The notes under the pieces: model-generated
Databases searched by the model: none
What the model was told of the DNA's origin: nothing
What the model saw: only the letters and a program-made list of their open reading frames with translations
Translations under genes and position numbers: made by a program
Assembly (NCBI GenBank): GCA_934169415.1
Contig: CAKPNP010000001.1
Span: 25,854-89,853, forward strand
Direction: 5' to 3'
Origin: an uncultured Bacilli bacterium
GTDB lineage: Bacteria; Bacillota_I; Bacilli_A; RF39; UBA660
DNA: 64,000 nt
Shown: one piece after another, positions 1,563-64,000 of the stretch
Position numbering within the stretch: position 1 is the stretch's first letter
Layout of the letters: every line of letters starts with the position of its first letter

Positions 1563-1571
1563 GAGGAAACT

Positions 1572-1877: not shown

Positions 1878-1891
1878 GGAAGGAGGGTATT

Positions 1892-2431: not shown

Positions 2432-2440
2432 GAGGATATT

Positions 2441-2626: not shown

Positions 2627-2641
2627 GAAAAGGAGGATTAT

Positions 2642-3034: not shown

Positions 3035-3047
3035 AAAGGGTGAATTT

Positions 3048-3581: not shown

Positions 3582-3604
3582 TAAATAAAAAAGGAGACGT
3601 TAAA

Positions 3605-3967: not shown

Positions 3968-3976
3968 GAGGGAATT

Positions 3977-4926: not shown

Positions 4927-4927
4927 G

Positions 4928-6840: not shown

Positions 6841-7581
6841 ATGATAAAAACAGAAGAAGAAATTGAACTTTTGAGGATTGCTGGTAAAATTACTGGTGAT
6901 ACTCACAATTATTTAAAAAGTTTTATTAAACCTGGTATAACAACAAAAGAATTAGATAAGCTTGCATATGATTATATTATTAGTCGTGATGCTACACCAT
7001 CTTTCTTAAATTATGAAGGTTATCCTGCTTCTATTTGTACTTCTATTAATGAAGAGGTAGTTCATGGAATCCCTGGGGATAGGAAACTAAAAAAAGGTGA
7101 TATAATATCTATTGATATTGGTGCTTGTTATAAAGGATATCACGGGGATTCTGCATGGACATATAAAGTTGGATCAGTAAGTCGTGAAAAAGAATATTTA
7201 ATGATTCACACTGAAAAATCTTTATTTGAAGGACTTAAGGCTGTAAAACCTGGTAATCACATTGGTGATATAGGTTATATGGTTGAAAGTTATGCAAAAA
7301 AACATAAATTAGGTGTAGTTAAAGAGCTAGTTGGTCATGGTGTAGGTTCCAATTTACATGAGAAACCTGATGTTCCTAATTATGGTAAGCCTCATACAGG
7401 GTTAGAACTAAAAGAGGGAATGGTAATTGCTGTTGAACCAATGCTTAATTTAGGTACAGCTACAGTTTATATCCTAGATGATGATTGGACTATCATAACA
7501 GGTGATGATAAACCATCAGCACATTTTGAACATACAGTTCTTGTTACAAAAGAAGGATATGAAATTTTAACAAAGAGGTGA
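6841..7581 (+). CDS. map: Methionine aminopeptidase type I
   Basis: 246 aa in the pita-bread fold family, with the conserved metal ligands HGIP, DIGA, HGVG and EPM context. Confidence 0.93.
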
Positions 7582-7585
7582 TATA

Positions 7586-7801
7586 ATGGCTAATAACGAC
7601 GTTATTGAAGTAGAAGGTAAAGTAATTGATATTTTGCCTCGTAATGAATACAGAGTAGAATTAGAAAACAAACATACTGTAATTGCTCGCGTTTCTGGTA
7701 AAATCCGAATGAATAAGATTCGCATTTTAACAGGTGATACAGTAGTTGTAGAGCTTTCACCATATGATTTAACACGCGGGCGTATAACTTACCGAAAATA
7801 G
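7586..7801 (+). CDS. infA: Translation initiation factor IF-1
   Basis: 71 aa with an S1-like domain, [36 protein letters not shown]. Confidence 0.95.
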
Positions 7802-7814
7802 TAGGAGGAAAATT

Positions 7815-7928
7815 ATGAAAGTAAAAGCATCAGTAAAACCAATATGTGAAAAATGTAAAGTAATTAGACGTAAGGGAAAAGTATATGTAATATGCTCAAA
7901 TCCTAAACATAAACAAAGACAAGGTTAA
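7815..7928 (+). CDS. rpmJ: 50S ribosomal protein L36 (37 aa; absent from the ORF track because of its size)
   Basis: Manual translation gives [37 protein letters not shown] with a CxxC...C...H zinc ribbon. RBS AGGAGGA lies upstream, and the gene sits between infA and rpsM. Confidence 0.9.
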
Positions 7929-7940
7929 TAGGAGGTTAAA

Positions 7941-8306
7941 ATGGCACGTATTAAAGGTGTAGATATACCAAATAATAAAAGAATAGAAATAGCATTAACT
8001 TATATTTATGGAATTGGTAGAAGTTTATCAAACCAAATTTTAAAGGATGCTAATATTGATATTAATAAAAGAGCTGGTGAACTAGATAATGACGAATTAG
8101 CTAGAATTCGTGATGAAGTTAACAAATATATGACTGAAGGAGATCTTCGTCGTGAAGTTAACATGAACATTAAAACAAAGATGGAAATAAATAGCTACCA
8201 AGGTACTCGTCATAAAAAAGGATTACCAGTAAGAGGTCAAAGAACAAATCGTAATGCGCGTACTCGTAAGGGTAAAGGTAAAGTAGTAGCTAATAAGAAA
8301 AAATAG
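7941..8306 (+). CDS. rpsM: 30S ribosomal protein S13
   Basis: 121 aa with [27 protein letters not shown]13. Confidence 0.96.
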
Positions 8307-8328
8307 ACTTTAAAAGGAGGTTAATTTT

Positions 8329-8712
8329 ATGGCTTATAAAGCAAGAAAGAGAAAAATTAAAAAGAACATTCCTGAAGGTAAAGCATATATTCAATCAACA
8401 TTCAATAACACTATTGTAACTATTAGTGATATGGATGGTAATGCTATAAGTTGGGCATCAGCTGGAACTTTAGGTTTTAAAGGAAGTAAGAAATCAACTC
8501 CATTCGCTGCTGGAATGAGTGCTGAAGCTGCTGGTAAAGCTGCTGTAGATATGGGAATGAAAAAAGTAGCAGTATTTGTAAAAGGATTAGGATCAGGTAG
8601 AGAAACTGCAATCCGTTCATTACAAACTGCAGGTTTAGAAATAACAACCATCACTGATGTAACACCAATCCCACATAACGGATGTCGTCCACCAAAACGT
8701 CCAAGAGGATAA
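8329..8712 (+). CDS. rpsK: 30S ribosomal protein S11
   Basis: 127 aa with [29 protein letters not shown]11. Confidence 0.96.
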
Positions 8713-8731
8713 TAAAAGGAGGGTTTATTAA

Positions 8732-9682
8732 ATGCTAAACTTTGAAAAACCAACATATAAAATAACTGAATATGTTGAAAATAATAATTTTGGAAAATTT
8801 GAATTAGAACCACTTGAGAGAGGTTTTGGTAATACTATAGGTAATGCTTTACGTAGAGTAATGTTATCTAGTATGCCAGGTAGTGCAATAGTAGCCGTTA
8901 AAATAGACGGTGTTATGCATGAATTTCAAACTATCGAAGGTGTAGTAGAAGATGTTACAGCAATTATTTTAAATTTAAAAAATGTTGTACTTAAAAATAA
9001 TTCAGAAGAAGAACAAACTATATATTTACACGCTGATACTGAAGGTGTAGTAACAGCTGGTGATATCAAAACTAATGAATCAGTAGAAGTTATTAATAAA
9101 GATCAAGTAATAGCAACGCTTGCTAAAGGTGGAAAACTTGACATGGAATTATTAGTAAGAAATGGACGTGGATACGTTCCTGGAGATAAAAATAAACAAT
9201 ATATTGAAAATTCTAAATTAGGATTTATTCCAATTGATGCGTTATATTCTCCAATTGAAAAAATTAGCTATGAAGTAGAAAATGCCCGTGTAGGACAAGA
9301 TGCTAGTTATGATAAATTAGTTTTATATGTAAATACAAATGGTTCTTTAAGACCTGAAGAAGCTATTGCTTTAGGTTCTAAAATATTAATTGAACACTTC
9401 AATATTTTAACAGAATTATCAGAAATAGCTGATATGACTGGTATTATGAGTGCTAAACAAGAAGATAGCAAAATTAAGAAATTAGAAACACCAATTGAAG
9501 ATTTAGATTTCTCTGTAAGAGCATTTAATTGCTTAAAGAGAGCTAATATTAATACATTAGGTGATTTAACAGAAAAATCAGAACTTGAAATGATGAAAAT
9601 CCGTAATTTAGGTAAGAAATCATTAAAAGAAGTTATTGATAAGATTAAAGGCATGGGACTTAGATTCCGTGACGAAGACTAG
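8732..9682 (+). CDS. rpoA: DNA-directed RNA polymerase alpha subunit
   Basis: 316 aa with RpoA N-terminal and C-terminal domains ([15 protein letters not shown]; the C-terminal domain reads [22 protein letters not shown]). Confidence 0.96.
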
Positions 9683-9693
9683 GAGGTAATTTT

Positions 9694-10047
9694 ATGTATA
9701 GAAAATTAGGTCGTACTAATAAACATAGAAGAAGCATGCTAGCTAACTTAACTAAAGATGTTATCATGAATGAAAAAATTACTACAACTGAAACAAGAGC
9801 CAAAGAAGCACGTAAATTCGTTGATAAAATGATTTCTTATGGTAAGGATGGATCTTTAGTAGCTAGAAGAAAAGCATTAGCTTTCTTACAAAACGATACA
9901 GAAGCAGTTAAAAAAGTATTTGACGTTTTAGCACCTCGTTATGCTAAACGTAATGGTGGATATACTAGAATAATTAAGCTTGATGAACGTCGTGGAGATG
10001 ATGCTTTAATGGTTATTTTAGAATTAGTTGAAGAGGATGCTAAATAG
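9694..10047 (+). CDS. rplQ: 50S ribosomal protein L17
   Basis: 117 aa with [20 protein letters not shown]17. Confidence 0.95.
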
Positions 10048-52386: not shown

Positions 52387-53812
52387 TGTTGGTAGACAAT
52401 AAATTTGATAAATGAAATAATTAGTGAGGGATGATGAAAATCATCCTTTTAAAATGCCTTTAATTAAGAAAATACGGGAAATAAAATGATCATATTTTCT
52501 ATATCCAAAAGCAATATGTTTAATACCTTTAATTAAATTATTGGTACCTTCTATAACGCCATTATTAATATCATATTTAAATAAGTTTTGTATATAATTA
52601 ATATTCTCTTTGTACAACTTTAAAGCTTGGATCATTTTAGGAGATAAATCCTTATGATGATTGAATACAATAGATTTAAATTTATCAAAATTTCTTTCTT
52701 TTAAAGAATTAATTAAACCTTGATAATATTCATATGTAGCTTTTAAAGTTGAATTGGTATTAATTAAATATTGAACAATTTCTTTTTGTGAAATATTTTT
52801 ATGAAAATGTTTAGAATAATGTTTTTCATCAGATAAATCATTTTCATTTTTAACAATTAACTTCCAATAATCCTTTAACTTATTATAGTTAGGGTTATCC
52901 TTTTTACATAAACTAACTCTAGTACAATTTAAAGCATTATAAACTTGTGTTACAATATGAAATCTATCAATAGAAATATCCGCATTTTTAAATAATTTTT
53001 TAGCTAAATAAATATAACCAGAATAGAAATCAGTAGAAATATGCTTAACTTTATTTCTTTGTTGTCTAGAGTATCTTCTAAAATATTTTTCTAAATCTTT
53101 AGATTTTCTAGAATCATTAATATCAAAAAGATTACCATTATCATTATCAGTAATGATAAATGCCATTTTACCTTTAGTATCACAAGTAGCTTTAAATTCA
53201 TCCCAATTCATAGAAGTAGGTAATGTAGGATGTCTTAACACGTTATGAGAAGAAATATCATTTAATATACGATCGATTACAGAAACAGAAACATCCATTC
53301 TTTTAGCAATATCCTTTTCAGATTGTTTTTGCATAAGTTCTAATTTTATTTGAAGATTAGTATTATTAGAAATATTTTTATACTTATCAACAAGATTAGT
53401 TTCAGCAATAAAAGTATTATGACAATGTTTACAAAAGAAACGTTGTTTATGTAAAATTAATCTAGTTAAGCAATTATTTTGTTTAGGAATTCTAATACTG
53501 CAGTTCTTTCTAAAATCCCACTTAATAATATCATTGGTAGAGTTATTAATAATATTACAATGGGGACATGATTGTGGAATATAGGTTAAAATACCTTCAA
53601 CAATTTTATATTTCTTGTCATTTATAACCTTTTCTTTAATTTCTGTAATAATATGTATATTTTCGTCTTTAATATTTAATAAATTTAGTATATAATTATT
53701 TGTAGACATAAGTTTGTTCCTTTTAATTTTTTTTGGTTAATTACATTGTATCAAACTTATGTCTTTTATTAAATAAAAAAGTATTAGTGAAATATATTCA
53801 CCAACACTATTT
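52381..53812 (-). mobile_element. ISL3-family insertion sequence (~1.43 kb)
   Basis: The terminal inverted repeats are AAATAGTGTTGGT (52381-52393) and ACCAACACTATTT (53800-53812). It encodes an intact ISL3 transposase. Confidence 0.7.
52441..53709 (-). CDS. ISL3-family transposase (intact)
   Basis: 422 aa with an N-terminal CPHC...C..C zinc finger and a DDE_Tnp_ISL3 core (ISTDFYSGY, NNGVIEGTNNLIKGIKHIAFGYRKYDHF). Confidence 0.85.
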   Translation of the reverse strand: MSTNNYILNLLNIKDENIHIITEIKEKVINDKKYKIVEGILTYIPQSCPHCNIINNSTNDIIKWDFRKNCSIRIPKQNNCLTRLILHKQRFFCKHCHNTFIAETNLVDKYKNISNNTNLQIKLELMQKQSEKDIAKRMDVSVSVIDRILNDISSHNVLRHPTLPTSMNWDEFKATCDTKGKMAFIITDNDNGNLFDINDSRKSKDLEKYFRRYSRQQRNKVKHISTDFYSGYIYLAKKLFKNADISIDRFHIVTQVYNALNCTRVSLCKKDNPNYNKLKDYWKLIVKNENDLSDEKHYSKHFHKNISQKEIVQYLINTNSTLKATYEYYQGLINSLKERNFDKFKSIVFNHHKDLSPKMIQALKLYKENINYIQNLFKYDINNGVIEGTNNLIKGIKHIAFGYRKYDHFISRIFLIKGILKG

Positions 53813-53999: not shown

Positions 54000-54258
54000 A
54001 CTACAATGTATATGAAAAGTTTCAAAAGCAAAATCCAAAATTTAAAAAGAAGTATACTTTATGGGTTATTTATACTGATTTGAGATTAAAATATGAATAT
54101 GAGAGAAATATGGTTCTTTGATAATTATATTTCAACAATAAAATGAAATTATTTATATAGAAATAAAAATGTAATATTAAGCATATTTCTCATACATTAT
54201 GTATGTAAATATGTTTTTTTATGTTATAATCTTTATAGAGAGTGTAGGTGGTATTGAT

Positions 54259-55134
54259 ATGAAAAAGAAGCAAAATTTAATTCTTCAACCAATATTAAAA
54301 TGGGCTGGAGGAAAAAGACAATTGTTAACACAATTAGAAAAATATTTTCCTAAACATTTTAAATGTTATTATGAACCTTTTGTTGGTGGGGGAGCTGTAT
54401 TATTTCATTTACAACCTAAAAAAGCTGTAATAAATGATTATAATGAAGATTTAATTAATTTATATAAATGTATTAAGGATAATTTAGAAGAGTTAATAGA
54501 AAAATTAAAATATTATGAAACAAAAAATGATTCCGATAGTTTTTATGAAATAAGAGGCATAGATAGGACTGATGAATATAAAAAATGGACCCCTGTAGAA
54601 AAAGCTGCGAGATTGATTTATTTAAATAGGACTTGCTACAATGGATTATTTAGAATGAATAGTGCTGGTCAATTTAATTCTCCTTATGGCTCATATAAAA
54701 ATCCATGTATATGTAATGAACCAGTTCTTAGAGCTATGAATAAGTATTTTAATGAAAATGATATCGAGTTTAGAGCGGGTGATTTTGAAGAAGCGTGTAA
54801 AGATGCAACAAAAGGCTCATTTGTTTATTTGGATCCGCCATATGATCAGTATGATGAACAATTAAACTTTGTTGGATATACTAAAGATGGATTTACACGT
54901 GTGGATCAAACAAGATTAAAAAAAATATGTGATAAACTTATTGAAAAAGGATGTTATGTCATGATTAGTAATTCCAAAACACCATTTATTATTGATTTGT
55001 ATAGTGACTCAACTAAATATATTACTTACACTATAAACACTGTTAATGCAAGAAGAAATATAAATAGTAATGCTAAAAAAAGAGGAGAAGTAGAGGAGGT
55101 TTTGATTATTGGAAAATTGGATATCAAAGAATAA
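54259..55134 (+). CDS. Dam-family (D12 class, alpha-group) N6-adenine DNA methyltransferase
   Basis: LKWAGGKRQLL, YYEPFVGGGAV (motif I) and VYLDPPY (motif IV). The ATG at 54259 has RBS GGTGG. Confidence 0.85.
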   Translation: MKKKQNLILQPILKWAGGKRQLLTQLEKYFPKHFKCYYEPFVGGGAVLFHLQPKKAVINDYNEDLINLYKCIKDNLEELIEKLKYYETKNDSDSFYEIRGIDRTDEYKKWTPVEKAARLIYLNRTCYNGLFRMNSAGQFNSPYGSYKNPCICNEPVLRAMNKYFNENDIEFRAGDFEEACKDATKGSFVYLDPPYDQYDEQLNFVGYTKDGFTRVDQTRLKKICDKLIEKGCYVMISNSKTPFIIDLYSDSTKYITYTINTVNARRNINSNAKKRGEVEEVLIIGKLDIKE

Positions 55135-56410
55135 TAAAGTGTGGAACTTTTTGTTTGAAAAATATAATATTGTTGATGAAGTAAATAAAAATGGGTTCTT
55201 TGAGATAGCTGCTGATCAGATAAAAGAAGCTGGAAGAGAACCACGATTAATGACTAAGTTTGATAGTAGTGAAAACTTACCTAAAATCTTTACAGATAAT
55301 AAATTAGCAATACTTCCTATTAGAAGAGGCTCTTACATAATAGGTAGATTTGAAAATTATCAAGATGTTGAATTAAATAATAATATAGATGTTGTTACAA
55401 AGTATTTACCAGATTATATTACAACTATCGATTATAGTAATATAACTAGTGAGGCTGTTTCGTTAAACTCGGCTTATGTTTCCGGAATGATCGAAGATAT
55501 TGTCGGTGAACCTGTTATTCCGACAATTCAAGGAAGAATGGGAACAGGAGAATTTGATTATCAAATTTCTTTAAATGATAAAACAAATTTTAATGTAAAT
55601 GTTCAAAATTCTCAAATGGAAATAGATGGAAGTTATGAAGGAATCACAAAGTTTGTTATATTGGAAGCAAAAAATCATTATATGAAAGATTTCATTATAA
55701 GACAATTATACTATCCATATAAAGTATGGAAAAAGGTTACTAATAAAGAAATTATTCCAGTGATGCTTATAAAACATGATAATATTTTCAACTTTTATAT
55801 ATATTCTTTTACAGATGATAATAATTATAATAGTATCAATTTAAAAAAAATAAAAAGATTTATATTAGATGAGGCATATAATCCAATAGAATTTGAAGAT
55901 ATTATAGATGTTATGAATAATGTTAAATATGTAGAAGAAACGGATCAAAATCCTTTTCCACAGGCTAATTCATTTTATAGAGTATTGGATTTAATTAATG
56001 AACTAAATAGTCAAGAATTATCACCAAGTGAAATTGCAGAATTATATGAATTTGATATTAGACAAGCGAACTATTATCTAGCAGCAGGTCAATACTTAGG
56101 ATTTATAGAAAAAGATAAGAATTATAAATTAACTGATTATGGTAAAAGAATAATGAAAATGAACCATAAGAATAAAAATCTAGAGATAATTAATGCTATT
56201 TTATCTCATAAGCCATTTTATTTTGCATTAGAACAATACATAAAATACTTTGATTTTAAACCAAATAAAATAGCTGATATTATTTATGATTATAGAGCTG
56301 AAATCAATTCTAGAGAGACTGCTATTAGAAGGACTAGTACAGTAATAGCATGGATAAAATGGATCATAGAGTTAACTACTACAACAGAGCAAAACCCTTT
56401 TGAAAAATGA
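55109..56410 (+). CDS. Putative restriction endonuclease partner of the Dam-family methyltransferase; hypothetical
   Basis: 433 aa. Its start overlaps the methyltransferase gene end by 26 nt. There is a candidate PD-(D/E)xK arrangement (GEFDYQI ... VILEAKNH) and a probable C-terminal wHTH. No confident family assignment. Confidence 0.45.
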   Translation: MENWISKNNKVWNFLFEKYNIVDEVNKNGFFEIAADQIKEAGREPRLMTKFDSSENLPKIFTDNKLAILPIRRGSYIIGRFENYQDVELNNNIDVVTKYLPDYITTIDYSNITSEAVSLNSAYVSGMIEDIVGEPVIPTIQGRMGTGEFDYQISLNDKTNFNVNVQNSQMEIDGSYEGITKFVILEAKNHYMKDFIIRQLYYPYKVWKKVTNKEIIPVMLIKHDNIFNFYIYSFTDDNNYNSINLKKIKRFILDEAYNPIEFEDIIDVMNNVKYVEETDQNPFPQANSFYRVLDLINELNSQELSPSEIAELYEFDIRQANYYLAAGQYLGFIEKDKNYKLTDYGKRIMKMNHKNKNLEIINAILSHKPFYFALEQYIKYFDFKPNKIADIIYDYRAEINSRETAIRRTSTVIAWIKWIIELTTTTEQNPFEK

Positions 56411-56524
56411 GACCGTTGAGGTCTTTTTTTATAATAATTATAAAATATTTTTAAAATATTTTATAATTATTATTGACTTTTAAATAAAAATGTAGTATTT
56501 TATGGTTGAAAACGGAGGTATATT

Positions 56525-56746
56525 ATGAATGTAAAGCAAGATAATTTCAAGAGAATTGCTGAAAATAGAACTAATAAAATAATAGATTTAATTTCAAAAC
56601 TTAGTAATTTAAGAAATAATACATCATTTTATGAATATACAGATGAACAAATGGAAGCAATATTTGATGCTATACAAAAAGAACTTGATAAACAAAAAAA
56701 AGAATTTAGAAAGGATAAAAAGAAAACGAAAAGATTTCAATTGTAG
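56525..56746 (+). CDS. Small basic hypothetical protein (73 aa)
   Basis: RBS GGAGGT. K/R-rich helical. It immediately precedes the GHKL ATPase gene. Confidence 0.4.
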   Translation: MNVKQDNFKRIAENRTNKIIDLISKLSNLRNNTSFYEYTDEQMEAIFDAIQKELDKQKKEFRKDKKKTKRFQL

Positions 56747-56760
56747 TAGGAGGTAGTAGT

Positions 56761-58689
56761 ATGAGCATGTTTGATAGTTTTAGAGCAAAACCTAAATGGA
56801 AATTTATTGAAAATGGATATGGAAATGAATCTAGTTTAGATTCAACAGATGTTGAAACTTTTAAAAAGGATCCAATAGCATCATTAGCAAGGGAATCATG
56901 CCAAAATTCTATTGATGCAAGAAGAAATGATGAACCTGTAAAAATTGTTTTTAAGTCTTTTTTAATTAAGACAAATAGTATACCTGGAATTAAAGAATTA
57001 AAAGAAGAATTGATTGCATGTAGAGATTCACATGAACAAAATACAAAATATTATAAAAAGTTTGATTCAATGATATCATGTGTTGAAAGAGAAGAAATAT
57101 TATGCTTAAGAATTAGTGATTTTAATACAAAAGGATTAGAAGGAGTAGCAACAAATGATAGAAATAAAGCGTTTTATTATTTAACTAAAGGGAATGGTCT
57201 TACAACTAAGATTAGCTCGAATAGTGGTGGCTCTAAAGGAATAGGTAAATTTGCTTCATTTGTTGCAAGTGATCTTCAAACTGTTTTCTATGCAACTTTA
57301 AATGAAAACAATGAAAAGGGATATATTGGTATTTCTAAACTTGCATCTAGATTGTTAAATCAAGAAACTGGTATGTGTACGACGGGGTATGGATATTTCT
57401 GTAGGTCTGAAAAGGTACTTCCAATTCTTGAAACACTAGTATTAGATAAGTATTTTGTTCGAGATAAGTATGGAACAGACATTTATGTTATTGGATTTAG
57501 AGCAGAAGAAAATTGGAGAGCAGCTATAATTTCAAAAATACTAGATAGTTTTATGTGTGCAATACAATATGGAGATTTAGAAGTAGAAGTTGATGGTATA
57601 GAAATTAATAAAGAAAAATTACAAAGTATAGTATATAATGATTCTTATATAATTCCTAGTGAAAAGAAAAATATATTGGCACAATATGTTCTTTTAAATA
57701 ATGAATTTGTTCACACAAAGACTGTAGATATTAAAGGATACGGTAACGTCAAAATATATTTAAAAGATTTTGATAGGCAGAATGAAAATTTTGCAACAAA
57801 TAAATGTGTTATGGTTAGATATCCATATATGAAAATTACAGATTTCAAAATACCATTTGCAAAACCTTGTTCAGCATTATGTATTATAGAAAAAAATGAG
57901 TTAAATAGTATGTTAAGAGAAGTTGAAAATCCACAACATACAGATTGGGAACCAAATAGAATAACTGATGATACTGAATTAAGAAGAGAAATAAAGAGAG
58001 TAATTAAAGAAATAAAAGATCAAGTTCAAATATTTGCTGATGAAGTTTTATTAAGTGGAGATAAAGAAGAAATTGATATAGATGGTGCAGGAGATTATTT
58101 AGCAGATTATAATTTTGGCAATGATGATATTCCTTTATCTGGAGAAGAAGTTACTGAAAAGCCTAAAGTTGTAAATTCTAGAAGGGCAATTCTTAAAAAT
58201 AATATAGGTGATAATTCGGAAGAAGGAGATAATTCCTCAGTTTATGATATTGGCAGTCACCAAGACAATGGTGATGACTCATCTGCACCAAGCGGAAATA
58301 ATCTAGGAACTGGTTCTGAAATTCATGAGGGTGATGAAACCAGCGGTTATAATCAAGAAGGTGATGAAGAAGTTCTTCATTCAGTACAATTAAGTGGAAT
58401 GAAAGTAAAAATTTTACTTTTAGATAAAGAAAATGGTAAATACTTGATAGTTTTTAATTCTATCTATGATGAAAGTAATTGTGATTTAGAATTATATTAT
58501 TTAGATGATAAAGGAGGAAGATATATTCCTAATGTTACATCAGCTTATATTAATGGTAATGAAGTAAAAATAGATAAAAATAGAATCAAGAATTTTAGTA
58601 TAGAAAATGGCATTAGATATAAAATTGAAATGAATACAGATTTAGATGATTTATATGCTTGTGAGGTGAGAATATATGCAAATAGGTAA
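56761..58689 (+). CDS. GHKL-superfamily (MutL/MORC/Hsp90-like Bergerat fold) ATPase domain protein, 642 aa, with an acidic linker and a C-terminal beta-rich domain
   Basis: It has an N-box-like SLARESCQNSIDA (aa 41-53), a G1-like RISDFNTKGLEG (aa 117-128) and a Gly-rich G2-like SNSGGSKGIGKFASF (aa 153-167). RBS GGAGG. Confidence 0.6.
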   Translation: MSMFDSFRAKPKWKFIENGYGNESSLDSTDVETFKKDPIASLARESCQNSIDARRNDEPVKIVFKSFLIKTNSIPGIKELKEELIACRDSHEQNTKYYKKFDSMISCVEREEILCLRISDFNTKGLEGVATNDRNKAFYYLTKGNGLTTKISSNSGGSKGIGKFASFVASDLQTVFYATLNENNEKGYIGISKLASRLLNQETGMCTTGYGYFCRSEKVLPILETLVLDKYFVRDKYGTDIYVIGFRAEENWRAAIISKILDSFMCAIQYGDLEVEVDGIEINKEKLQSIVYNDSYIIPSEKKNILAQYVLLNNEFVHTKTVDIKGYGNVKIYLKDFDRQNENFATNKCVMVRYPYMKITDFKIPFAKPCSALCIIEKNELNSMLREVENPQHTDWEPNRITDDTELRREIKRVIKEIKDQVQIFADEVLLSGDKEEIDIDGAGDYLADYNFGNDDIPLSGEEVTEKPKVVNSRRAILKNNIGDNSEEGDNSSVYDIGSHQDNGDDSSAPSGNNLGTGSEIHEGDETSGYNQEGDEEVLHSVQLSGMKVKILLLDKENGKYLIVFNSIYDESNCDLELYYLDDKGGRYIPNVTSAYINGNEVKIDKNRIKNFSIENGIRYKIEMNTDLDDLYACEVRIYANR

Positions 58690-59599
58690 AAGAGGATATC
58701 CTTACCCAATATTAAATAATGCTACAAATTACAATTGTTATAAAAAATCTACATATTCATTAGAATATGAGAATGAAGAAGACCACAATAATTTCACATT
58801 GAAAAATGTTAGAATTGAAACGAATAGCGAAGAATTAAAGTGTTTAATAGATAAAAAATTAGTTAAAGCAATGATAGTAATTGAATCATCATCAACTATA
58901 TTCAAATATACTGAAGAAATATCTACAACACCCAAAAACATAATAATACCAATAGGTAATTTAAGTGGAAAAGTAGAAATTTCAAGTATTGTGTATGCAA
59001 CAGAAAACATAGTTGGCTTTTCTAGTAATGATTTTACTGAGGATTTTGATAGTTATAAATTTAACATTGAAAAGTATTGCCCAATTGCAATTGATGACGG
59101 ATATATTGTTAAAGTAGAATATAATGATTTTGATGATAAAAAAGTTTCATCGATATTTTCAGTTGTTGAAAGTTATGATTCTGAATTAAAATATATGAAA
59201 GTAATAAATGGCGATAGGAAAATTAAAATTGAATTACCAGAAGATGAATTTAAGAAATTTGATGCATTAAATGGTCAAAGTACATTTTATAATCTCTTCT
59301 TTTCAATAATAATTATTCCAGCATTATCATCATGTTTAAAAGATTTTCAATCAGAAATAAAGTATCAAGAAAAAACAATAGAAGATATTTCAGATTCACA
59401 TAGTTGGTTTTTATCTATTCAAAATGCATACAAGAAAATCTATAACAAGGATATTAAAAATGAAGAATTTATCAATCTTAATGCACTTGAATTTAGTCAA
59501 ACTATATTCGATTATTGTTCAGTTAAATCAATTAAAGATTTTTATGACATAATAAAAAGAAAGACTGATGCTAGTGAGGAGGATGAAGAAAATGTTTAA
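58676..59599 (+). CDS. Hypothetical protein (307 aa), co-operonic with the GHKL ATPase
   Basis: Its start overlaps the upstream stop, suggesting translational coupling. No recognisable family. Confidence 0.5.
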   Translation: MQIGKRGYPYPILNNATNYNCYKKSTYSLEYENEEDHNNFTLKNVRIETNSEELKCLIDKKLVKAMIVIESSSTIFKYTEEISTTPKNIIIPIGNLSGKVEISSIVYATENIVGFSSNDFTEDFDSYKFNIEKYCPIAIDDGYIVKVEYNDFDDKKVSSIFSVVESYDSELKYMKVINGDRKIKIELPEDEFKKFDALNGQSTFYNLFFSIIIIPALSSCLKDFQSEIKYQEKTIEDISDSHSWFLSIQNAYKKIYNKDIKNEEFINLNALEFSQTIFDYCSVKSIKDFYDIIKRKTDASEEDEENV

Positions 59600-60410
59600 C
59601 AAAATAATTAATATTTCTTTTATAACTGATGATGCTTTAAATACATTATATAGTAATCCTCAAAAGGTAACAGAACTAATAAGAAATAATCCATTTGAAT
59701 CATCGTGGTTAAATGAATTGATAAATAAAGAACCATTCGAGTTAAGAAAAATAAAAATTGAAGATTTTGAACTTAAAATATCACCAAATGGTAATTATAA
59801 AGAAGTTGAATTTGATAATGCTGTATGTTTGTATGAACATTTGAAAGATATTCCTAGATATATATTAATCGATGAAAGATTCTGGGTATGGCTTGAGTTA
59901 GGTAAATTTTATAGAGTTGCAGTTCAGTCGATGCCAGTAAAAAAAGATACTGCATTTGAAGGACAATGGATATTCACTAGAGGGAATAAACGTGGACTTT
60001 GGTTTAATGTTTTTTCAAGAAGTTATTTTTGGGTAGAATTTACTGTTGATGAAAATACTGAGAATAGATACGAATTAACAAAATTTGCTTTTGAAAAAAT
60101 AGAAAGAATTCGTCACTTAACATTTGATAGTAAATATAGAAATATTGTATTTAACAGTTTAAAAGCAGAAAAAATGCTATATGATAAATATGCTAATGAT
60201 CCAGAATATATGGAAACATTTAAAAAGTGTGAATCTGGAATTGGAAGTTATAATATATATACTTATTTAAGAAAAGCATTATCATTGTATGGAAGCGTAA
60301 GAATATTAGATTTTATGAGTGATGAAGATATATTTAATATTGCTTATCAAAAATTAGAAAATGCATTTTTTGAAGTTCATAAAGGCAACATTGAATATTT
60401 AATGAAATAA
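59592..60410 (+). CDS. Hypothetical protein (~273 aa), last gene of the GHKL operon
   Basis: RBS GAGGAGG lies 8 nt upstream of ATG 59592, overlapping the upstream gene end. It is Trp/Phe-rich (FWVWLEL, RGLWFNVF). No recognisable family. Confidence 0.5.
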   Translation: MFNKIINISFITDDALNTLYSNPQKVTELIRNNPFESSWLNELINKEPFELRKIKIEDFELKISPNGNYKEVEFDNAVCLYEHLKDIPRYILIDERFWVWLELGKFYRVAVQSMPVKKDTAFEGQWIFTRGNKRGLWFNVFSRSYFWVEFTVDENTENRYELTKFAFEKIERIRHLTFDSKYRNIVFNSLKAEKMLYDKYANDPEYMETFKKCESGIGSYNIYTYLRKALSLYGSVRILDFMSDEDIFNIAYQKLENAFFEVHKGNIEYLMK

Positions 60411-60710: not shown

Positions 60711-60873
60711 AACATAATTAAAATTTTACATACCAAACTACATACCATAATATTTAAAATGTATTAATAATTTTTAAAATATTACAAAAATAAAACCTAG
60801 TATTTACTAGGATTTATCAATATTTATCAATGATTTAACAGTTCTTAAAAATATATTTTAGCGGCCCCCTGAA

Positions 60874-60905
60874 GAGAGCATTTAACCGTGCTCTTATCTT
60901 TTGTT
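60874..60905 (+). terminator. Hairpin plus U-tract (terminator-like) inside a GC-rich non-coding patch
   Basis: AGAGAGCA-TTTAACCG-TGCTCTT followed by ATCTTTTGTT. Confidence 0.4.
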
Positions 60906-60994
60906 CCCATTTTATAAGGGCTTGCGAGGCGTCGGTTTTGCTAAAATAATTTTAGGTACAATTTAGGTACAAAAAAATTGATTTAATAATAGTT

Positions 60995-61034
60995 CATTGA
61001 GAAAAAGTGCCGAAAGTGGCAAAAATTCTCAATG
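60995..61034. promoter_or_regulatory. Nested inverted repeat (candidate operator/structured element) upstream of the XRE-ImmA module
   Basis: CATTGAGAA...TTCTCAATG forms a 9-bp stem enclosing a smaller TGCC-GAAAGT-GGCA hairpin. A tandem ATTTAGGTACA x2 lies just upstream (60953-60974). Confidence 0.35.
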
Positions 61035-61162
61035 GATTTTTAATTTTAACAATGATGCGGATAAAATATAAGTGGTCAATATGAATGAAAAATATTATTC
61101 CACAAGCGGTAGGATATAGTTAGTATAAGATCATGGTATAATATATTATGAGGAGATGTCTT

Positions 61163-61363
61163 ATGGAAAAGAAAGAAGAAATAATTAGTAATAAAATTAA
61201 ATGTAAAAAATGCGGAGATATCATAGAATCAAAAAGTACTAATGATCTAAAAAGATGTTCTTGTGGAGCTGTTGCAGTTGACGGAGGCACTGAATATTTG
61301 AAGAGAATTGGTAATGAAAATGATTATATAGAATTGTCTATTAATAAAGATAATAATAAATAG
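61163..61363 (+). CDS. Small zinc-ribbon protein; hypothetical
   Basis: RBS AGGAGA lies 6 nt before ATG 61163. CKKCG...CSCG forms two Cys pairs. Confidence 0.5.
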   Translation: MEKKEEIISNKIKCKKCGDIIESKSTNDLKRCSCGAVAVDGGTEYLKRIGNENDYIELSINKDNNK

Positions 61364-61458
61364 TTATTTACATAAATAATAGAAAATAATAAATATAATT
61401 CAAAAATGTTGAAAAATTCAACATTTTTGAATATAATAATAATGATTTATACGTTAGG

Positions 61459-61809
61459 GTGGCGTATATGAAGGAGTTAAATTACAAAAAAATAGGTGAA
61501 AGATTAAGAAAACTTAGAAAATATATGGGATTAACGCAAGAACAAGTGGCCGAAATCGTAAGTTTAGGTCGAGATGCAATATTGAGAATCGAAAAAGGTG
61601 ATCGAAAGATTGATTTACAAGAATTAATGAATTTTTCAAAATTATATAATATAAGTATGGATGAATTGACAGCGGAAGAACATATTGTAAGTAGTAACGA
61701 TATAGCATTTGCAAGGGTTTTTAATGAATTAAGTGAAAAAGATAAAAAAGAAATTATTAGTTTAATCGAATATAAAAATATTTTGAAGTCTAAATATAAT
61801 GATAATTAA
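61459..61809 (+). CDS. XRE-family HTH repressor (ImmR-like); probable start ATG 61468
   Basis: LRKYMGLTQEQVAEIVSLGRDAILRIEKGDRKIDLQEL is an HTH_3 domain. It precedes an ImmA/IrrE peptidase gene. Confidence 0.8.
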   Translation: MAYMKELNYKKIGERLRKLRKYMGLTQEQVAEIVSLGRDAILRIEKGDRKIDLQELMNFSKLYNISMDELTAEEHIVSSNDIAFARVFNELSEKDKKEIISLIEYKNILKSKYNDN

Positions 61810-62212
61810 TATAACACCAGAAGAATTGGCAAACAACGAATTAGAAAAATTAAGAAATAAATATAAACTAACTTTTCCAATAGATCCATTTAGAATTCTT
61901 CGTGATGCTGGCGTTTTTGTTGTATTAAAAGATTTTGAAAATTTATATGGCATTATCGTTAATGATATAGATAATTGCACAATTGTAGGAATTAATTCAA
62001 ATAGTGGATGCCAAAGACAAAAATTTATAGCAGCACATGAATATTGTCATTTTATAAAAGATTTAAATAAAGAACAGGGAACAACAGATTATATTAAGTG
62101 TTTGAAAGCTTCAAATAAAACAATAGAAAAATATGCAAATGCTTTTGCAGGTTACTTGCTTATGCCAACAAATGAATTAAATGTTATTTGTGAACAATAC
62201 AAAAATAAATAA
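61799..62212 (+). CDS. ImmA/IrrE-family zinc metallopeptidase, terminated prematurely by an in-frame TAA
   Basis: The HExxH motif AAHEYCHFI is present. The ORF stops at 62210-62212, but the same frame continues with ImmA-like C-terminal sequence (IAEYFGVSFSSCLNRIAYDLNLI). Confidence 0.7.
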   Translation: MIINITPEELANNELEKLRNKYKLTFPIDPFRILRDAGVFVVLKDFENLYGIIVNDIDNCTIVGINSNSGCQRQKFIAAHEYCHFIKDLNKEQGTTDYIKCLKASNKTIEKYANAFAGYLLMPTNELNVICEQYKNK

Positions 62213-62299
62213 GGATTTATTGATTTCGAAAGTATAACGATTATAGCTGAATACTTTGGTGTTAGTTTTAGCTCTTGTTTAAATAGAATAGCTTATGAT

Positions 62300-62884
62300 T
62301 TGAATTTAATAGAAGGAGATATTTCTTCAGAATCTTTAAGAAAAAGAATGAAAAAATATGATATACCATCAAAAAGACAAGAACTTATAGAAAATAAGAT
62401 TGATAGCACGTTGTTATCAAATGTTGTTAACTCAATGAATTTTTTAATGGCTGATATTAATAAATATACTGGTCAAAAATTTTTACAAAACTATATTTAT
62501 AATGATAATAAATTTGACTGTGAATTACAATTATTTATGGAAAACATAGATGATTATGATGTAGGAAAATACATAGAGCAAGTTGTACGTTTTACGTATA
62601 GGTTTATAGTTATTAACCATTTTAGAGACGGAAATGGTCGTATATCAATGGCTATATTAAATTGGCTTTTGAGTAAGAAAAAAATACCACCGATATATAT
62701 AGATTCAAAGCGCAAAAAAGAATATTTAGAAGCACTTTCAATGATAGATTTGAAAGGAGACTTTGTACCATTTATAATGCTTATTGAAAAAAGGATAATT
62801 CATACTATGATTGAATTACATAAATATCTATTTGTTGATGAAATAGATGAGAAAATAATTAGTGATGTAGTGCCAGTTAATTAA
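62300..62884 (+). CDS. Fic/Doc-family protein (same reading frame as the upstream ImmA gene)
   Basis: HFRDGNGRISMAILNWLL matches the Fic motif HPFx(D/E)GNGR. The first Met after the stop is at 62300, and the upstream in-frame sequence is ImmA-like. Confidence 0.7.
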   Translation: MNLIEGDISSESLRKRMKKYDIPSKRQELIENKIDSTLLSNVVNSMNFLMADINKYTGQKFLQNYIYNDNKFDCELQLFMENIDDYDVGKYIEQVVRFTYRFIVINHFRDGNGRISMAILNWLLSKKKIPPIYIDSKRKKEYLEALSMIDLKGDFVPFIMLIEKRIIHTMIELHKYLFVDEIDEKIISDVVPVN

Positions 62885-63117
62885 TATGTATAAACTATTT
62901 TTATAATAATACTAGTAACTTAAATAGATATGGTTGAGTTTTTTTGTTAAATATTATAACTATTTTATATAACTATTTTTACAAATTAGATAAAAAATAC
63001 AAAAATAAAATCTTTAGTTGAAAATATGTAAATAACTTTTTAAAAGATTAAAGTAATATTGAAATAGTTTATATTATTTGATAATATATTTAATAGAGAA
63101 AACTTAAGGTGAAATTA

Positions 63118-64000
63118 TGGAGTTTGATATTAAATTTTTAAAAGAAAATAAGAAATTTATTTTAATATTATTAGTAATTATTTTATTTACTTTTTTGATA
63201 TCTATATTTGAAAATAAAAGTGCAGGAATAAGTAATATAGAAGAAAACGGTGATGAATTAGTAAAAAAATTAGTTATTAATGAAATAATGAGTTCTAATA
63301 AGGGTGTAGTATCAGATTCATTTGGTGATACTTATGATTATATTGAATTATATAATGGAACTAATAGTGATATTAATTTAAAGAATTTTGGTTTATCTGA
63401 TAAAGATAATGGGATTAAATGGGTGTTTCCTGATGTTACAATCAAAAAAAGAGATTATTTAGTTATATATTTATGTGGTTGTAATAAAGATGGAATGTAC
63501 GCTAATTTTAAATTAAAAAGTTCTGGTGGAGAATCAATAATATTAAAAGATAATAATGGTAAAACAATTGACTATGTAAAAACTGAAAGTCTAGCAAAAA
63601 ACGAGGTAATGGCAAGAGATTTGAATGGTAATTTTAAAATATATGATAAACCAACACCAGGTTATATTAATACTTTAGAAGGCTATAATGAGTATATAGA
63701 AAGTTTAAAAATAGATAATACTACTGGTATAGAAATTAATGAAATATTACCTCGTAATAAGGGAAATTTTAGTTTAAATAAATCTTTTTATGGCTATGTT
63801 GAATTAATCAATACAAGTGATAAAAAGATAAATTTAGATGGCTTTAGTTTGTCTGATGATGTACATACACCTTTTAAATATAATATTCCAAGTACTACTT
63901 TAAATAAAGGCGAAGTTTTATTAATATTTATGGATGATGTAAAAAATAGTGAATATTTATTTTCAGGTTTTAAATTAAATTCAAATAGTGGAAGTGTAAT
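63118..64000 (+). CDS. Lamin-tail-domain (LTD) repeat surface protein, 5' partial (continues beyond window)
   Basis: An N-terminal TM anchor is present. There are two LTD units (INEIMSSNKG...DYIELYNGTNSDINLKNFGLSD and EINEILPRNKG...YVELINTSDKKINLDGFSLSD). No stop codon appears before the window end. Confidence 0.65.

What the first reader, a model, noticed from the sequence alone, without database searches (positions are those of the whole stretch)
61799..62884. ImmA/IrrE metallopeptidase reading frame interrupted by a single TAA and continuing in-frame into a Fic domain
The ImmA-like ORF (HExxH = HEYCH) stops at 62210-62212. Translation of the same frame immediately downstream gives typical ImmA C-terminal sequence (ESITIIAEYFGVSFSSCLNRIAYDLNLI). 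It then continues without a further stop into a Fic domain (HFRDGNGR). So this is one of three things: a recent nonsense mutation in an unusual ImmA-Fic fusion gene, a sequencing error, or a programmed readthrough. An XRE repressor sits upstream, so the trio looks like an ImmR/ImmA-type switch controlling, or fused to, a Fic AMPylase-type toxin.
Basis: seen in the sequence. Interest (0 to 1): 0.55.

Follow-up and report, generated by a model that had tools for sequence, protein, structure and literature searches.

The report
Decayed ImmA-Fic defence gene remnant
This is the dead remnant of a repressor-controlled gene that joins a protease to a Fic toxin, disabled by a stop codon, a large internal deletion and loss of its catalytic residues, so it is an ordinary pseudogene whose intact relatives are the more interesting thing.

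Summary
ORF 61799-62212 (HEYCH) ends at TAA 62210-62212, and the same frame stays open to 62884. The Pfam Peptidase_M78 match runs straight across the stop.

The TAA is real: the identical split gene is present in at least four independent metagenome assemblies. Relatives (more than 100 protein clusters, 45-81% identity) carry one uninterrupted ~465-aa ImmA-Fic fusion, so this is a broken fusion gene.

The stop is only one of several lesions:
- A 318-nt in-frame deletion, flanked in intact relatives by an 11/12 direct repeat. It removes the autoinhibitory Glu and the N-terminal half of the Fic core.
- The invariant Fic motif HPFxDGNGRxSR has become NHFRDGNGRISM.
- The third gene of the cassette, which encodes a GPGGGLYT-repeat protein, is missing.

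The XRE repressor and its palindromic operator/promoter survive, but the repressor has a G84V change next to the predicted cleavage site.

By profile and fold, the intact cassette is a CapH/CapP-like (ImmR/ImmA-like) switch whose peptidase is fused to a class II Fic domain. It lies in a defence island (type II R-M, PDC-M33, ISL3). Nothing supports readthrough.

Verdict: an ordinary pseudogene of an undescribed variant of known systems.

The parts
61148..61363 (+). Small DUF7695 (zinc-ribbon-like, CxxC...CxC) gene that travels with the cassette in a subset of related loci.
   Evidence: Pfam DUF7695, E 5e-28. DNA homology to L007, L010, L011 and L030 starts at ~60865 (L012 at 60911) and includes this gene. 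The same gene lies upstream of the XRE gene in L088.
61398..61432 (.). Perfect palindrome (16-nt arms) that is the predicted XRE operator. Its core is ATGTTGA-N5-TCAACAT.
   Evidence: the repeat finder reports arms 61398-61413 and 61417-61432, 100% complementary. The core ATGTTGA...TCAACAT (two of the 21 loci carry one mismatch each) sits at the same place upstream of the XRE gene in 20 related loci, down to ~50% protein identity. The outer arm bases change on both sides, e.g. TTCAAAAATGTTGA in the window versus TGCAAGAATGTTGA in L005.
61409..61437 (+). Sigma-70-type promoter TTGAAA-17 nt-TATAAT, overlapped by the operator.
   Evidence: Joint best promoter match in the region, 11 of 12 positions. 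Orthologs have TTGAC(T/A)/TTGAT-17/18-TATAAT in the same register.
61468..61809 (+). Intact XRE-family repressor (113 aa from ATG 61468), CapH/ImmR/DdrO-like. It carries a private G84V change (GTT at 61717-61719) in the otherwise invariant F-A-R-G-F motif.
   Evidence: Pfam HTH_3, E 2e-11. The ortholog's best PADLOC hit is capH, E 6.6e-13, over the full length. The best solved relative is the ImmR HTH domain, 7t8i. FARGF is invariant in 20 orthologs and the window has FARVF. CapH is cut at F82|R83 (bioRxiv 10.1101/2022.04.27.489752).
61799..62212 (+). N-terminal fragment of the ImmA/CapP-like peptidase (137 aa). It has HEYCH at 62036-62050, the invariant Cys101 and Glu110. It ends at the premature TAA and overlaps the XRE gene by 11 nt.
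   Evidence: The ortholog's best PADLOC hit is capP, E 6e-26, over the peptidase part only. The fold search hits Thauera CapP, 7t5t.
62210..62212 (+). Premature in-frame TAA stop (codon 138). In the model of the intact protein it falls in the loop between the peptidase core and the following helical subdomain.
   Evidence: Orthologs have D, E, N or K here. The stop is identical in independent assemblies L001-L004. The model places the loop at residues 130-137 of P0006.
62213..62884 (+). Untranslated (or at best separately initiated) remainder of the fusion: the helical/HTH-like subdomain, the linker and the C-terminal half of the Fic domain.
   Evidence: In frame with the upstream ORF. It is 76-81% identical to orthologs. 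Pfam M78 continues to aa 164, and the Fic match covers aa 247-291, profile positions 50-93 of 93.
62506..62517 (+). Junction of a 318-nt (106-codon) in-frame deletion. It removed the autoinhibitory-helix Glu (…NDNK|LEG…) and the first Fic core helices.
   Evidence: Window 62506-62517 aligns to both L005 8693-8704 (TAATAAACTTGA) and L005 9011-9022 (TAATGAACTTGA), an 11/12 direct repeat flanking the missing segment. The protein alignment shows the gap. NDNKLEG aligns with FICD TVAIEG.
62615..62650 (+). Degenerate Fic active-site motif NHFRDGNGRISM, where the family has HPFxDGNGR(I/V)SR.
   Evidence: H273N, P274H and R284M are private to the window at columns that are at least 97% conserved among 109 full-length homologs.
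62885..63117 (.). Non-coding gap where intact cassettes carry the third gene (GPGGGLYT-repeat protein). Homology to orthologs ends at ~62893.
   Evidence: tblastn and blastn with the third gene find no remnant anywhere in the window. Homology ends at 62850-62893. The third gene overlaps the fusion's stop in L005, L007, L009, L010 and others.

Best explanation
The region 61398-62884 is what remains of a small, horizontally mobile three-gene cassette. The intact cassette consists of an XRE repressor, an ImmA/CapP-like zinc peptidase fused to a class II Fic (AMPylase-type) domain, and a Gly/Tyr/Thr-repeat protein.

Inferred working of intact relatives:
- The XRE dimer binds the palindrome over the promoter and keeps the operon off.
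- On a stress signal, the M78 peptidase cuts the repressor at the conserved A82|R83-G84 site. This is by analogy with ImmA/ImmR, IrrE/DdrO and CapP/CapH, where the signal is DNA damage or ssDNA.
- This induces the Fic effector, which is otherwise held in check by its own inhibitory Glu (motif DxxxEG).
- The role of the repeat protein is unknown. It could be an antitoxin or a decoy substrate.

In this window the effector gene is dead. A genuine, population-wide TAA stops translation after the peptidase core. A slippage-type 318-nt deletion removed the inhibitory Glu and half of the Fic fold. The catalytic His and the final Arg of the motif are replaced. The third gene is deleted. Only the repressor and its operator/promoter remain intact.

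Shown: the lesions, their reality, the fused state in relatives, and the domain identities. Inferred: the signalling mechanism, the toxicity of the Fic domain, and the order of the lesions.
For: - Stop inside the M78 domain: the Pfam match spans it.
- Relatives are fused: 109 of the best 120 homolog clusters are 445-475-aa uninterrupted fusions, with a sense codon at the stop position.
- The split gene is real: identical versions occur in independent assemblies ERZ28615229, ERZ4561613 (Hadza), ERR7745859 and ERR7738581.
- Deletion: 318 nt, flanked by an 11/12 direct repeat in intact loci.
- Private H273N, P274H and R284M in a motif that is HPFxDGNGRxSR in 111 of the 114 best-hit homologs that retain this region.
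- Window-private changes at conserved columns are 11/78 in the Fic remnant, many of them radical. They are 6/88 and 3/70, all conservative, in the two upstream parts.
- The third gene is present in most close loci and absent here.
- Identity of the parts: capP and capH are the best PADLOC hits, with PDC-S04 and SoFic on the Fic part. The fold search gives FICD, BT_2513 and CdFic (class II Fic) and Thauera CapP. The inhibitory Glu aligns with FICD E234.
- Defence-island setting: type II MTase/REase, PDC-M33 A/B/C and an ISL3 transposase lie just upstream.
- Independent decayed alleles exist elsewhere. L088 has an in-frame TAA in the peptidase, a Cys-to-Arg change at the invariant Cys and HPF changed to DTF. 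L032 is truncated at the same loop. L009 has another in-frame Fic deletion.
Against: - Pairwise dN/dS of the window copy against intact orthologs is only slightly raised (median 0.14 versus 0.11). Most of its divergence therefore accrued under constraint, and the decay is recent, so the statistical signal of relaxed selection is weak.
- The stretch just downstream of the stop (codons 139-238) shows no excess of private changes.
- The 137-aa ORF keeps all predicted metal ligands. L032 is truncated independently within two codons of the same point. A residual role for a peptidase-only protein therefore cannot be excluded.
- No expression data or read-level data were available.
- The biochemical functions of the intact family have not been tested by anyone, as far as the literature searches show.
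Confidence: 0.83

Rival explanations
1. Domain fission with retained function. The stop converts the fusion into a working minimal pair of XRE repressor and stand-alone 137-aa ImmA-like peptidase, which is kept by selection. Only the Fic part downstream is junk.
For: - The 137-aa ORF keeps HEYCH, the invariant Cys101 and Glu110, and ends in an inter-domain loop.
- Its private substitutions are few and conservative (6/88).
- L032, a different species, carries an XRE gene plus a 133-aa peptidase ORF truncated within two codons of the same point by an unrelated deletion.
- The promoter and operator are intact.
Against: - The Pfam M78 model and the family alignment continue for ~27 well-conserved residues beyond the stop.
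- Stand-alone homologs found in a 1.8-billion-protein scan that match through to the end of the query are mostly 150-300 aa, so they extend beyond the fragment's end.
- In CapP the activating ssDNA groove needs the downstream HTH and C-terminal domains (bioRxiv 10.64898/2026.05.16.725639).
- The repressor has lost the invariant Gly next to the predicted scissile bond, which fits a cleavage step that is no longer used.
- L088 is interrupted inside the peptidase instead, so there is no general preference for keeping it.
Confidence: 0.1
2. Programmed stop-codon readthrough or recoding yields a full-length ImmA-Fic protein at low level.
For: The frame is open on both sides of a single TAA. The 100 codons after the stop show no excess of private substitutions.
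Against: - The stop is absent from all orthologs.
- TAA is the predominant ordinary stop codon in this window.
- There is no stable RNA structure around the site (z -0.67).
- The product would lack 106 residues of the Fic core, the inhibitory Glu and the catalytic His.
- TAA followed by G is, from general knowledge of bacterial termination, not a leaky context.
Confidence: 0.02
3. The TAA (and/or the deletion) is a sequencing or assembly artefact, and the organism really has an intact fusion gene.
For: Single-base errors do occur. Two other loci that look interrupted do show artefacts: an N-gap in L089 and a long-read frameshift in L019.
Against: The exact 137-aa product is recorded on at least 9 contigs. 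Four loci from different studies and assemblers were read, and they are 99.9-100% identical to the window across 61291-63300, including the stop, the deletion junction and the degenerate motif.
Confidence: 0.02
4. The downstream ORF (62300-62884, 194 aa from TTG, or from ATG 62348) is expressed on its own as a non-catalytic Fic-derived protein with a new role.
For: Gene callers annotate a 194-aa ORF with a weak Fic hit in all four assemblies. Promoter-like hexamers occur inside the region.
Against: - The number of promoter-like matches does not exceed shuffled expectation (26 versus 22±5).
- Inspection of the sequence showed no convincing ribosome-binding site upstream of these start codons.
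- The remnant has the highest load of radical private substitutions.
- It lacks half the fold.
Confidence: 0.03

Closest known systems
CapH/CapP regulators of CBASS and other defence operons (Lau et al. 2022, bioRxiv 10.1101/2022.04.27.489752; Calloji et al. 2026, bioRxiv 10.64898/2026.05.16.725639)
   Same: - capH and capP are the best PADLOC hits for the XRE and peptidase parts, and the fold search hits Thauera CapP 7t5t.
- The repressor has the same length class as CapH. It has an R83-G84 pair at the position where CapH is cut (F82|R83), and hydrophobic residues at CapH core positions 81, 85, 96 and 100.
- The peptidase has HExxH, a downstream Glu, and an invariant Cys between them, like the CapP cysteine switch.
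- It sits in a defence island.
   Different: The GAF domain is absent: the capP profile is matched only over positions 6-151 of 242. In its place the peptidase is fused to a Fic domain, so regulator and presumed effector are one polypeptide. Activation by ssDNA is untested. In the window the gene is broken.
ImmR/ImmA of ICEBs1 and IrrE/DdrO of Deinococcus (Peptidase_M78 / COG2856 with Xre partner; Makarova et al. 2009, PMC2701414)
   Same: - An XRE gene lies directly upstream of, and overlaps, an M78 peptidase gene.
- The ImmR HTH domain is the best solved relative of the repressor.
- The predicted logic is protease cuts repressor.
- It fits the predicted 'three-component' Xre-COG2856-toxin scheme.
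   Different: It is not in a phage or ICE (no fusion found in 50,697 phage records). The toxin partner is fused to the protease rather than encoded as a separate RelE or PIN gene.
Class II Fic AMPylases: FICD/HYPE, CdFic, BT_2513 and SoFic (SoFic defence system; AS1 antitoxin, PMC12249575)
   Same: - In intact orthologs the Fic fold and the HPFxDGNGRxSR motif are present.
- An N-terminal inhibitory helix carries a Glu that aligns with FICD E234.
- The orthologs hit the PADLOC PDC-S04 and SoFic profiles.
- A small gene follows immediately downstream, as AS1 follows SoFic.
   Different: - The inhibitory motif is DxxxEG, not (S/T)xxxE(G/N).
- The N-terminal partner is a peptidase.
- NCBIfam SoFic scores 30 bits against a cutoff of 550, so this is not SoFic.
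- The downstream protein is a 5-12x GPGGGLYT repeat, unrelated in length and kind to the 47-aa AS1.
- In the window the motif, the inhibitory helix and half the core are gone.
RosmerTA (RmrA = HTH + M78 peptidase antitoxin, plus RmrT toxin)
   Same: It has the same triad of XRE HTH, M78 peptidase and a toxin. Both parts give weak RmrA profile hits (E 1e-8 to 1e-4).
   Different: In Rosmer the HTH is fused to the peptidase and the toxin is separate. Here the HTH protein is separate and the peptidase is fused to the presumed toxin. The scores are far weaker than those for capP and capH.

Membership tests
ImmA/IrrE metallopeptidase (Pfam PF06114 Peptidase_M78, COG2856) | HExxH zinc motif plus a downstream Glu ligand | tested here: met
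   HEYCH is at aa 80-84. E110 is invariant in the family alignment. It corresponds by order and spacing to CapP H97/E98/H101/E128.
ImmA/IrrE metallopeptidase (Pfam PF06114 Peptidase_M78, COG2856) | Complete M78 domain within one translated ORF | tested here: not met
   The Pfam match covers aa 60-164 of the conceptual product (profile positions 28-122 of 123) and the stop is at codon 138. The ORF therefore lacks about the last fifth of the domain.
ImmA/IrrE metallopeptidase (Pfam PF06114 Peptidase_M78, COG2856) | Cognate XRE-family repressor encoded immediately upstream in the same operon | tested here: met
   The XRE gene 61468-61809 overlaps the peptidase start by 11 nt. The same arrangement is seen in all related loci.
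CapH/CapP defence regulators | CapP architecture of peptidase + HTH + C-terminal GAF domain that forms the ssDNA groove | tested here: not met
   The capP profile is matched only at positions 6-151 of 242. 7t5t aligns over 178 columns. The C-terminal part is a Fic domain in orthologs.
CapH/CapP defence regulators | CapH-like repressor with an N-terminal HTH, a C-terminal dimerisation helix pair and the F|RG cleavage site | tested here: inconclusive
   The capH profile is matched over its full length (positions 4-101 of 103, E 6.6e-13). A-R83-G84-F is invariant in 20 orthologs, but the window has V84. Cleavage was not tested.
CapH/CapP defence regulators | Peptidase activated by single-stranded DNA or DNA damage | not testable with these tools
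   This needs biochemistry, such as cleavage assays with and without poly-T ssDNA or mitomycin C induction.
Fic/Fido AMPylase (Pfam PF02661), class II | Active-site motif HxFx(D/E)GNGRxxR | tested here: not met
   The window reads NHFRDGNGRISM. The His is shifted by one position and the last Arg is replaced by Met. Nearly all of the best-hit homologs that retain this region (111 of 114) have HPFxDGNGRxSR.
Fic/Fido AMPylase (Pfam PF02661), class II | Complete Fic helical core | tested here: not met
   Only profile positions 50-93 of 93 are matched in the window, against 7-93 in the ortholog P0006. 106 residues are deleted.
Fic/Fido AMPylase (Pfam PF02661), class II | N-terminal inhibitory helix with (S/T)xxxE(G/N) | tested here: not met
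   Orthologs have an invariant D-N-K-L-E-G that aligns with FICD T-V-A-I-E-G. This is a variant motif. In the window the deletion begins after NDNK, so the Glu is gone.
SoFic defence system (PADLOC SoFic; NCBIfam NF046030) | Full-length match above the curated threshold | tested here: not met
   NCBIfam scores 30.1 bits against a cutoff of 550. The match is partial, aa 355-437 of the ortholog. The PADLOC SoFic hit is also partial (E 2e-16).
Programmed stop-codon readthrough / recoding site | The stop codon is conserved in orthologs and has a stimulatory context | tested here: not met
   Orthologs have sense codons at this position. There is no significant local RNA structure. TAA is the main ordinary stop codon in the window.

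The most novel reading that the evidence does not exclude
There are two linked readings.

1. The truncation is not mere decay. Loss of the Fic half has repeatedly left an XRE repressor plus a peptidase-core-only ORF, cut at the same inter-domain loop in the window and independently in L032. This pair may persist as a functional minimal ImmR/ImmA-type switch.

2. The intact family may be an undescribed defence or toxin-antitoxin type. In it, a CapP-like sensor protease is fused directly to a class II Fic effector and is translationally coupled to a Tyr/Thr-repeat (GPGGGLYT)n protein. That protein could serve as its AMPylation substrate, decoy or antitoxin.
Probability: 0.12. Interest if true: 0.55.

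Novelty: new variant of a known kind. Interest (0 to 1): 0.3.

Why it matters
The locus itself is a dead gene. It matters mainly for annotation: the two ORFs 61799-62212 and 62300-62884 should be marked as one pseudogene, not as separate 'ImmA' and 'Fic' proteins, and should not be counted as a toxin or defence system.

Its value is as a pointer to a well-populated but apparently undescribed cassette in small-genome gut Bacilli and other Firmicutes. In that cassette a CapP/ImmA-like signal protease is fused to a Fic AMPylase and is followed by a Tyr/Thr-rich repeat protein.

That architecture puts the sensor-regulator and the effector in one polypeptide. It also offers a candidate built-in Fic substrate, and both points are directly testable.

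Independent inactivating hits recur across lineages: the window, L088, L032 and L009. This also illustrates how quickly such costly modules decay while their repressor and operator survive.

Tried and rejected
- RNA structure around the stop as a readthrough stimulator: not significant.
- Rfam at gathering thresholds and tRNA/tmRNA scans of the whole window: nothing found.
- Remnants of the third gene in the window: none by tblastn or blastn.
- Phage records: only stand-alone ImmA or Fic hits, no fusion. Plasmids: one distant fusion, on a B. pumilus plasmid.
- L089 and L019 looked like further interrupted alleles, but they contain an N-gap and a probable long-read frameshift, so they were discarded.
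- An apparent indel between L001 and the window in PDC-M33B is a scaffold gap.
- The E. faecium homolog of the repeat protein sits at a contig edge, so its context is uninformative.
- Whole-gene dN/dS gave only a weak signal of relaxed selection, and the region-wise test is suggestive rather than decisive.
- Literature searches for an ImmA-Fic or COG2856-Fic fusion found no description of this architecture.
- RosmerTA and SoFic membership were considered and rejected on architecture and scores.
Full report
**Observation.** The sequence is as described. ORF 61799..62212 (137 aa, HEYCH at aa 80-84) ends at TAA 62210-62212. The same frame then runs without a stop to 62882-62884. On the conceptual 361-aa product, the Pfam Peptidase_M78 match covers aa 60-164 and so runs straight through the stop at codon 138 (E 7e-12). 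The Fic model matches aa 247-291, but only over its C-terminal half, profile positions 50-93 of 93. Upstream lies an XRE/HTH_3 gene that overlaps the peptidase start by 11 nt. Further upstream is a small DUF7695 gene.

**Is the stop real?** The exact 137-aa product is on record on at least nine contigs. Four loci were retrieved, from different studies and assemblers (ERZ28615229, Hadza ERZ4561613, Logan ERR7745859, ERR7738581). They are 99.9-100% identical to the window over the whole locus, and each has the same 194-aa downstream ORF called. An assembly or sequencing error is therefore very unlikely. TAA is also the ordinary and dominant stop codon here (35 of 52 ORFs of at least 150 aa). The RNA around the stop has no unusual structure (z -0.67).

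**What the gene was.** A search of 5.8 billion proteins returned 179 relatives. Of the best 120, 109 are uninterrupted 445-475-aa proteins carrying both PF06114 and PF02661, at 45-81% identity. Where a source names them, it calls them 'Fic family protein' or 'Zn-dependent peptidase ImmA (M78 family)/fido'. The alignment shows D, E, N or K at the position of the window's TAA. A scan of one genome per GTDB species found about 25 full-length or near-full-length copies. Most are in uncultured gut 'Bacilli bacterium' and Clostridia MAGs from human, rabbit and ruminant samples. More distant copies occur in Clostridium sp. B9, Paenibacillus and Ectobacillus, and one lies on a Bacillus pumilus plasmid. 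None was found in 50,697 phage records. Orthologs are fused.

**More lesions than the stop.** There are four further changes.
1. The window lacks 106 codons (318 nt) present in orthologs. The junction is at 62506-62517. In intact loci the missing segment is bracketed by an 11/12 direct repeat: TAATAAACTTGA at L005 8693-8704 and TAATGAACTTGA at L005 9011-9022. This is the signature of slippage or microhomology deletion.
2. The Fic active-site motif is HPFxDGNGR(I/V)SR in nearly all homologs that retain this region (111 of the 114 best hits). In the window it reads NHFRDGNGRISM at 62615-62650. H273N, P274H and R284M are private to the window at columns that are at least 97% conserved.
3. Intact cassettes have a third gene overlapping the fusion's stop. 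Homology between the window and orthologs ends at ~62893, and no trace of that gene exists anywhere in the window.
4. The XRE repressor is full length but carries G84V in a motif (F-A-R-G-F) that is invariant in 20 orthologs.

**Timing.** Pairwise dN/dS of the window copy against intact orthologs is 0.12-0.20 (median 0.14), compared with 0.11 among intact copies, at dS ~0.9-1.0. Most of the divergence therefore predates inactivation. Counts of window-private changes at columns conserved among 12 close orthologs differ by region:
- Peptidase part: 6 of 88, all conservative.
- The 100 codons after the stop: 3 of 70, all conservative.
- Fic remnant: 11 of 78, including Y264R, H273N, P274H, R284M, C305R, Y310L and P322F.

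This suggests, weakly, that the Fic half lost constraint first and that the stop is the most recent hit.

**Identity of the parts in intact relatives.**
- Profile hits: for ortholog P0006, PADLOC's best hit on the N-terminal part is capP (E 6e-26, peptidase portion of the profile only). On the C-terminal part the best hits are PDC-S04 (1e-21) and SoFic (2e-16). The XRE protein's best hit is capH (6.6e-13, full length).
- Fold: an AlphaFold2 model (mean pLDDT 80) matches FICD/HYPE, BT_2513 and C. difficile Fic, all class II Fic proteins. It also matches Thauera CapP 7t5t for the N-terminal part.
- Inhibitory motif: a family profile aligns 'YIYNDNKLEG' with FICD 'HIYHTVAIEG'. This puts the invariant Glu on FICD's autoinhibitory E234, so the family has a DxxxEG variant of the (S/T)xxxE(G/N) motif. 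The window's deletion starts right after NDNK. It removes this Glu and the first core helices (model residues ~234-339).
- Comparison with CapP: the published CapP has a peptidase (1-141), an HTH (142-182) and a GAF domain (182-288), with a zinc-capping 'cysteine switch' between HExxH and the Glu ligand (bioRxiv 10.64898/2026.05.16.725639). This family has an invariant Cys101 in the equivalent interval but has a Fic domain where the GAF domain would be. The window's stop falls in the loop at the end of the peptidase core.
- Cleavage site: CapH is cut by CapP between F82 and R83, and R83A blocks cleavage (bioRxiv 10.1101/2022.04.27.489752). The XRE protein here has A82-R83-G84-F85 at those same positions, and the window's private change is G84V.

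**Operator.** A perfect 16-nt-arm palindrome (61398-61413 / 61417-61432) overlaps the best promoter match (TTGAAA-17-TATAAT, 61409-61437). Its core ATGTTGA-N5/6-TCAACAT (two of the 21 loci carry one mismatch each) lies in the same register upstream of the XRE gene in 20 related loci, down to ~50% protein identity. The outer arm positions change on both sides. The regulatory front end of the cassette is thus intact in the window.

**Context.** Immediately upstream lie a type II methyltransferase (54199-55134) and restriction enzyme (55109-56410). Next come the three genes of the PADLOC candidate system PDC-M33 (56761-60410; E 9e-138, 4e-52, 7e-29). An ISL3 transposase is at 52441-53709 on the minus strand. 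This is a defence island. The cassette itself sits in different chromosomal neighbourhoods in different genomes, so it is mobile.

**Recurrent decay.**
- L088 has an in-frame TAA inside the peptidase (HFIKD*NKE), a Cys-to-Arg change at the invariant Cys, and HPF changed to DTF in the Fic motif. Its Fic fragment, P0080, represents a cluster of 144 member sequences.
- L032 keeps the XRE gene plus a 133-aa peptidase ORF ending '...CEQYKNI*', followed by unrelated DNA. That is within two codons of the window's '...CEQYKNK*'.
- L009/P0031 (and P0066) have a different in-frame 86-aa deletion that overlaps the window's.

Such repeated loss is what one expects of a costly toxin or defence module.

**Mechanism.** In intact relatives, the XRE dimer most likely represses the operon at the palindrome. 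The M78 peptidase cleaves it at A82|R83 in response to a stress signal, most plausibly DNA damage by analogy with ImmA, IrrE and CapP. This induces the Fic domain, which is otherwise autoinhibited by its Glu. Only the domain identities and conserved motifs are shown here. The signal, the cleavage and the Fic activity are inferred. In the window the effector arm is non-functional, and the locus is best annotated as XRE plus a single pseudogene.

**Main rival.** The chief alternative (about 10%) is that the XRE protein and the 137-aa peptidase core persist as a working pair. In its favour, the fragment keeps all predicted metal ligands, and L032 is truncated at the same point. Against it:
- About 27 conserved residues of the M78 domain lie beyond the stop.
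- Stand-alone relatives in a 1.8-billion-protein scan that match through to the end of the query are mostly 150-300 aa, so they extend beyond the fragment's end.
- The repressor's predicted cleavage site has itself changed.

**Novelty and score.** The pseudogene is ordinary. Its parent family combines known kinds (CapH/CapP- or ImmR/ImmA-type switch, class II Fic) in an arrangement I could not find described. The protease is fused to the Fic domain in place of the GAF domain, and an uncharacterised repeat protein is attached. I rate this as a new variant of a known kind and give the finding as posed an interest of about 0.3.

Noticed in passing
L005 9385-9804 (also L007 9388-9807, L009 3542-3961, L010, L012, L014, L018-L023, L026); absent from the window: The third cassette gene overlaps the ImmA-Fic stop by 11 nt. 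It encodes 5-12 tandem 8-aa repeats GPGGGLYT, followed by a conserved tail ...[32 protein letters not shown]. The hydroxyl residue of the repeat is Tyr, or Ser in several L018 repeats. It has no Pfam, NCBIfam or PADLOC match. Only 31 homologs were found, all named hypothetical, including 70-aa E. faecium proteins. A Tyr/Thr-repeat protein coupled to a Fic AMPylase could be its substrate, decoy or antitoxin.
   Followed up: partly
window 54199-60410 and 52441-53709(-): This is a defence island next to the pseudogene. It holds a D12-class type II methyltransferase (54199-55134), a type II restriction enzyme (55109-56410) and an apparently intact three-gene PADLOC candidate system PDC-M33 A/B/C (56761-58689, 58676-59599, 59568-60410; the last gene is DUF6339). 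An ISL3 transposase lies upstream.
   Followed up: partly
window 61717-61719 (XRE codon 84): The repressor has Val where 20 orthologs have an invariant Gly (FARGF changed to FARVF). The change is one residue after the position equivalent to the CapH F82|R83 cleavage site. It may reflect a cleavage site that is no longer needed once the protease is broken, or a selected non-cleavable repressor.
   Followed up: partly
L032 3995-4396: A different species (rabbit-gut MAG Lapin-026 bin120) keeps the XRE gene plus a 133-aa peptidase-only ORF ending ...CEQYKNI*, followed by unrelated DNA (a RarA-like ATPase). The truncation lies within two codons of the window's stop but arose by a different event.
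   Followed up: partly
L088 916-2313: This is an independent pseudogene allele. It has an in-frame TAA inside the peptidase (HFIKD*NKE), a Cys-to-Arg change at the invariant Cys that may be a cysteine switch, and the Fic motif HPF changed to DTF. The third gene is still present. Its Fic fragment (P0080) stands for a cluster of 144 member sequences.
   Followed up: partly
L009 2413-3552 (P0031; same deletion in P0066): A second, independent in-frame deletion (~86 aa) lies in the N-terminal half of the Fic domain and overlaps the window's 106-aa deletion. Here the catalytic motif is intact (HPFGDGNGRISR).
   Followed up: no
window 61148-61363 and 60865-61147: A DUF7695 small CxxC protein gene and ~280 nt upstream of it are co-inherited with the cassette in some loci (L007, L010, L011, L030, L088; in L012 homology begins at 60911) but not in others (L005, L013). 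In most of these loci the homology starts at ~60865, next to a terminator-like hairpin at 60874-60895.
   Followed up: partly
window 1-10000: The first ~10 kb has a higher G+C content (~31% versus ~23%) and densely packed short + strand ORFs, which looks like a ribosomal-protein operon. It was not examined.
   Followed up: no
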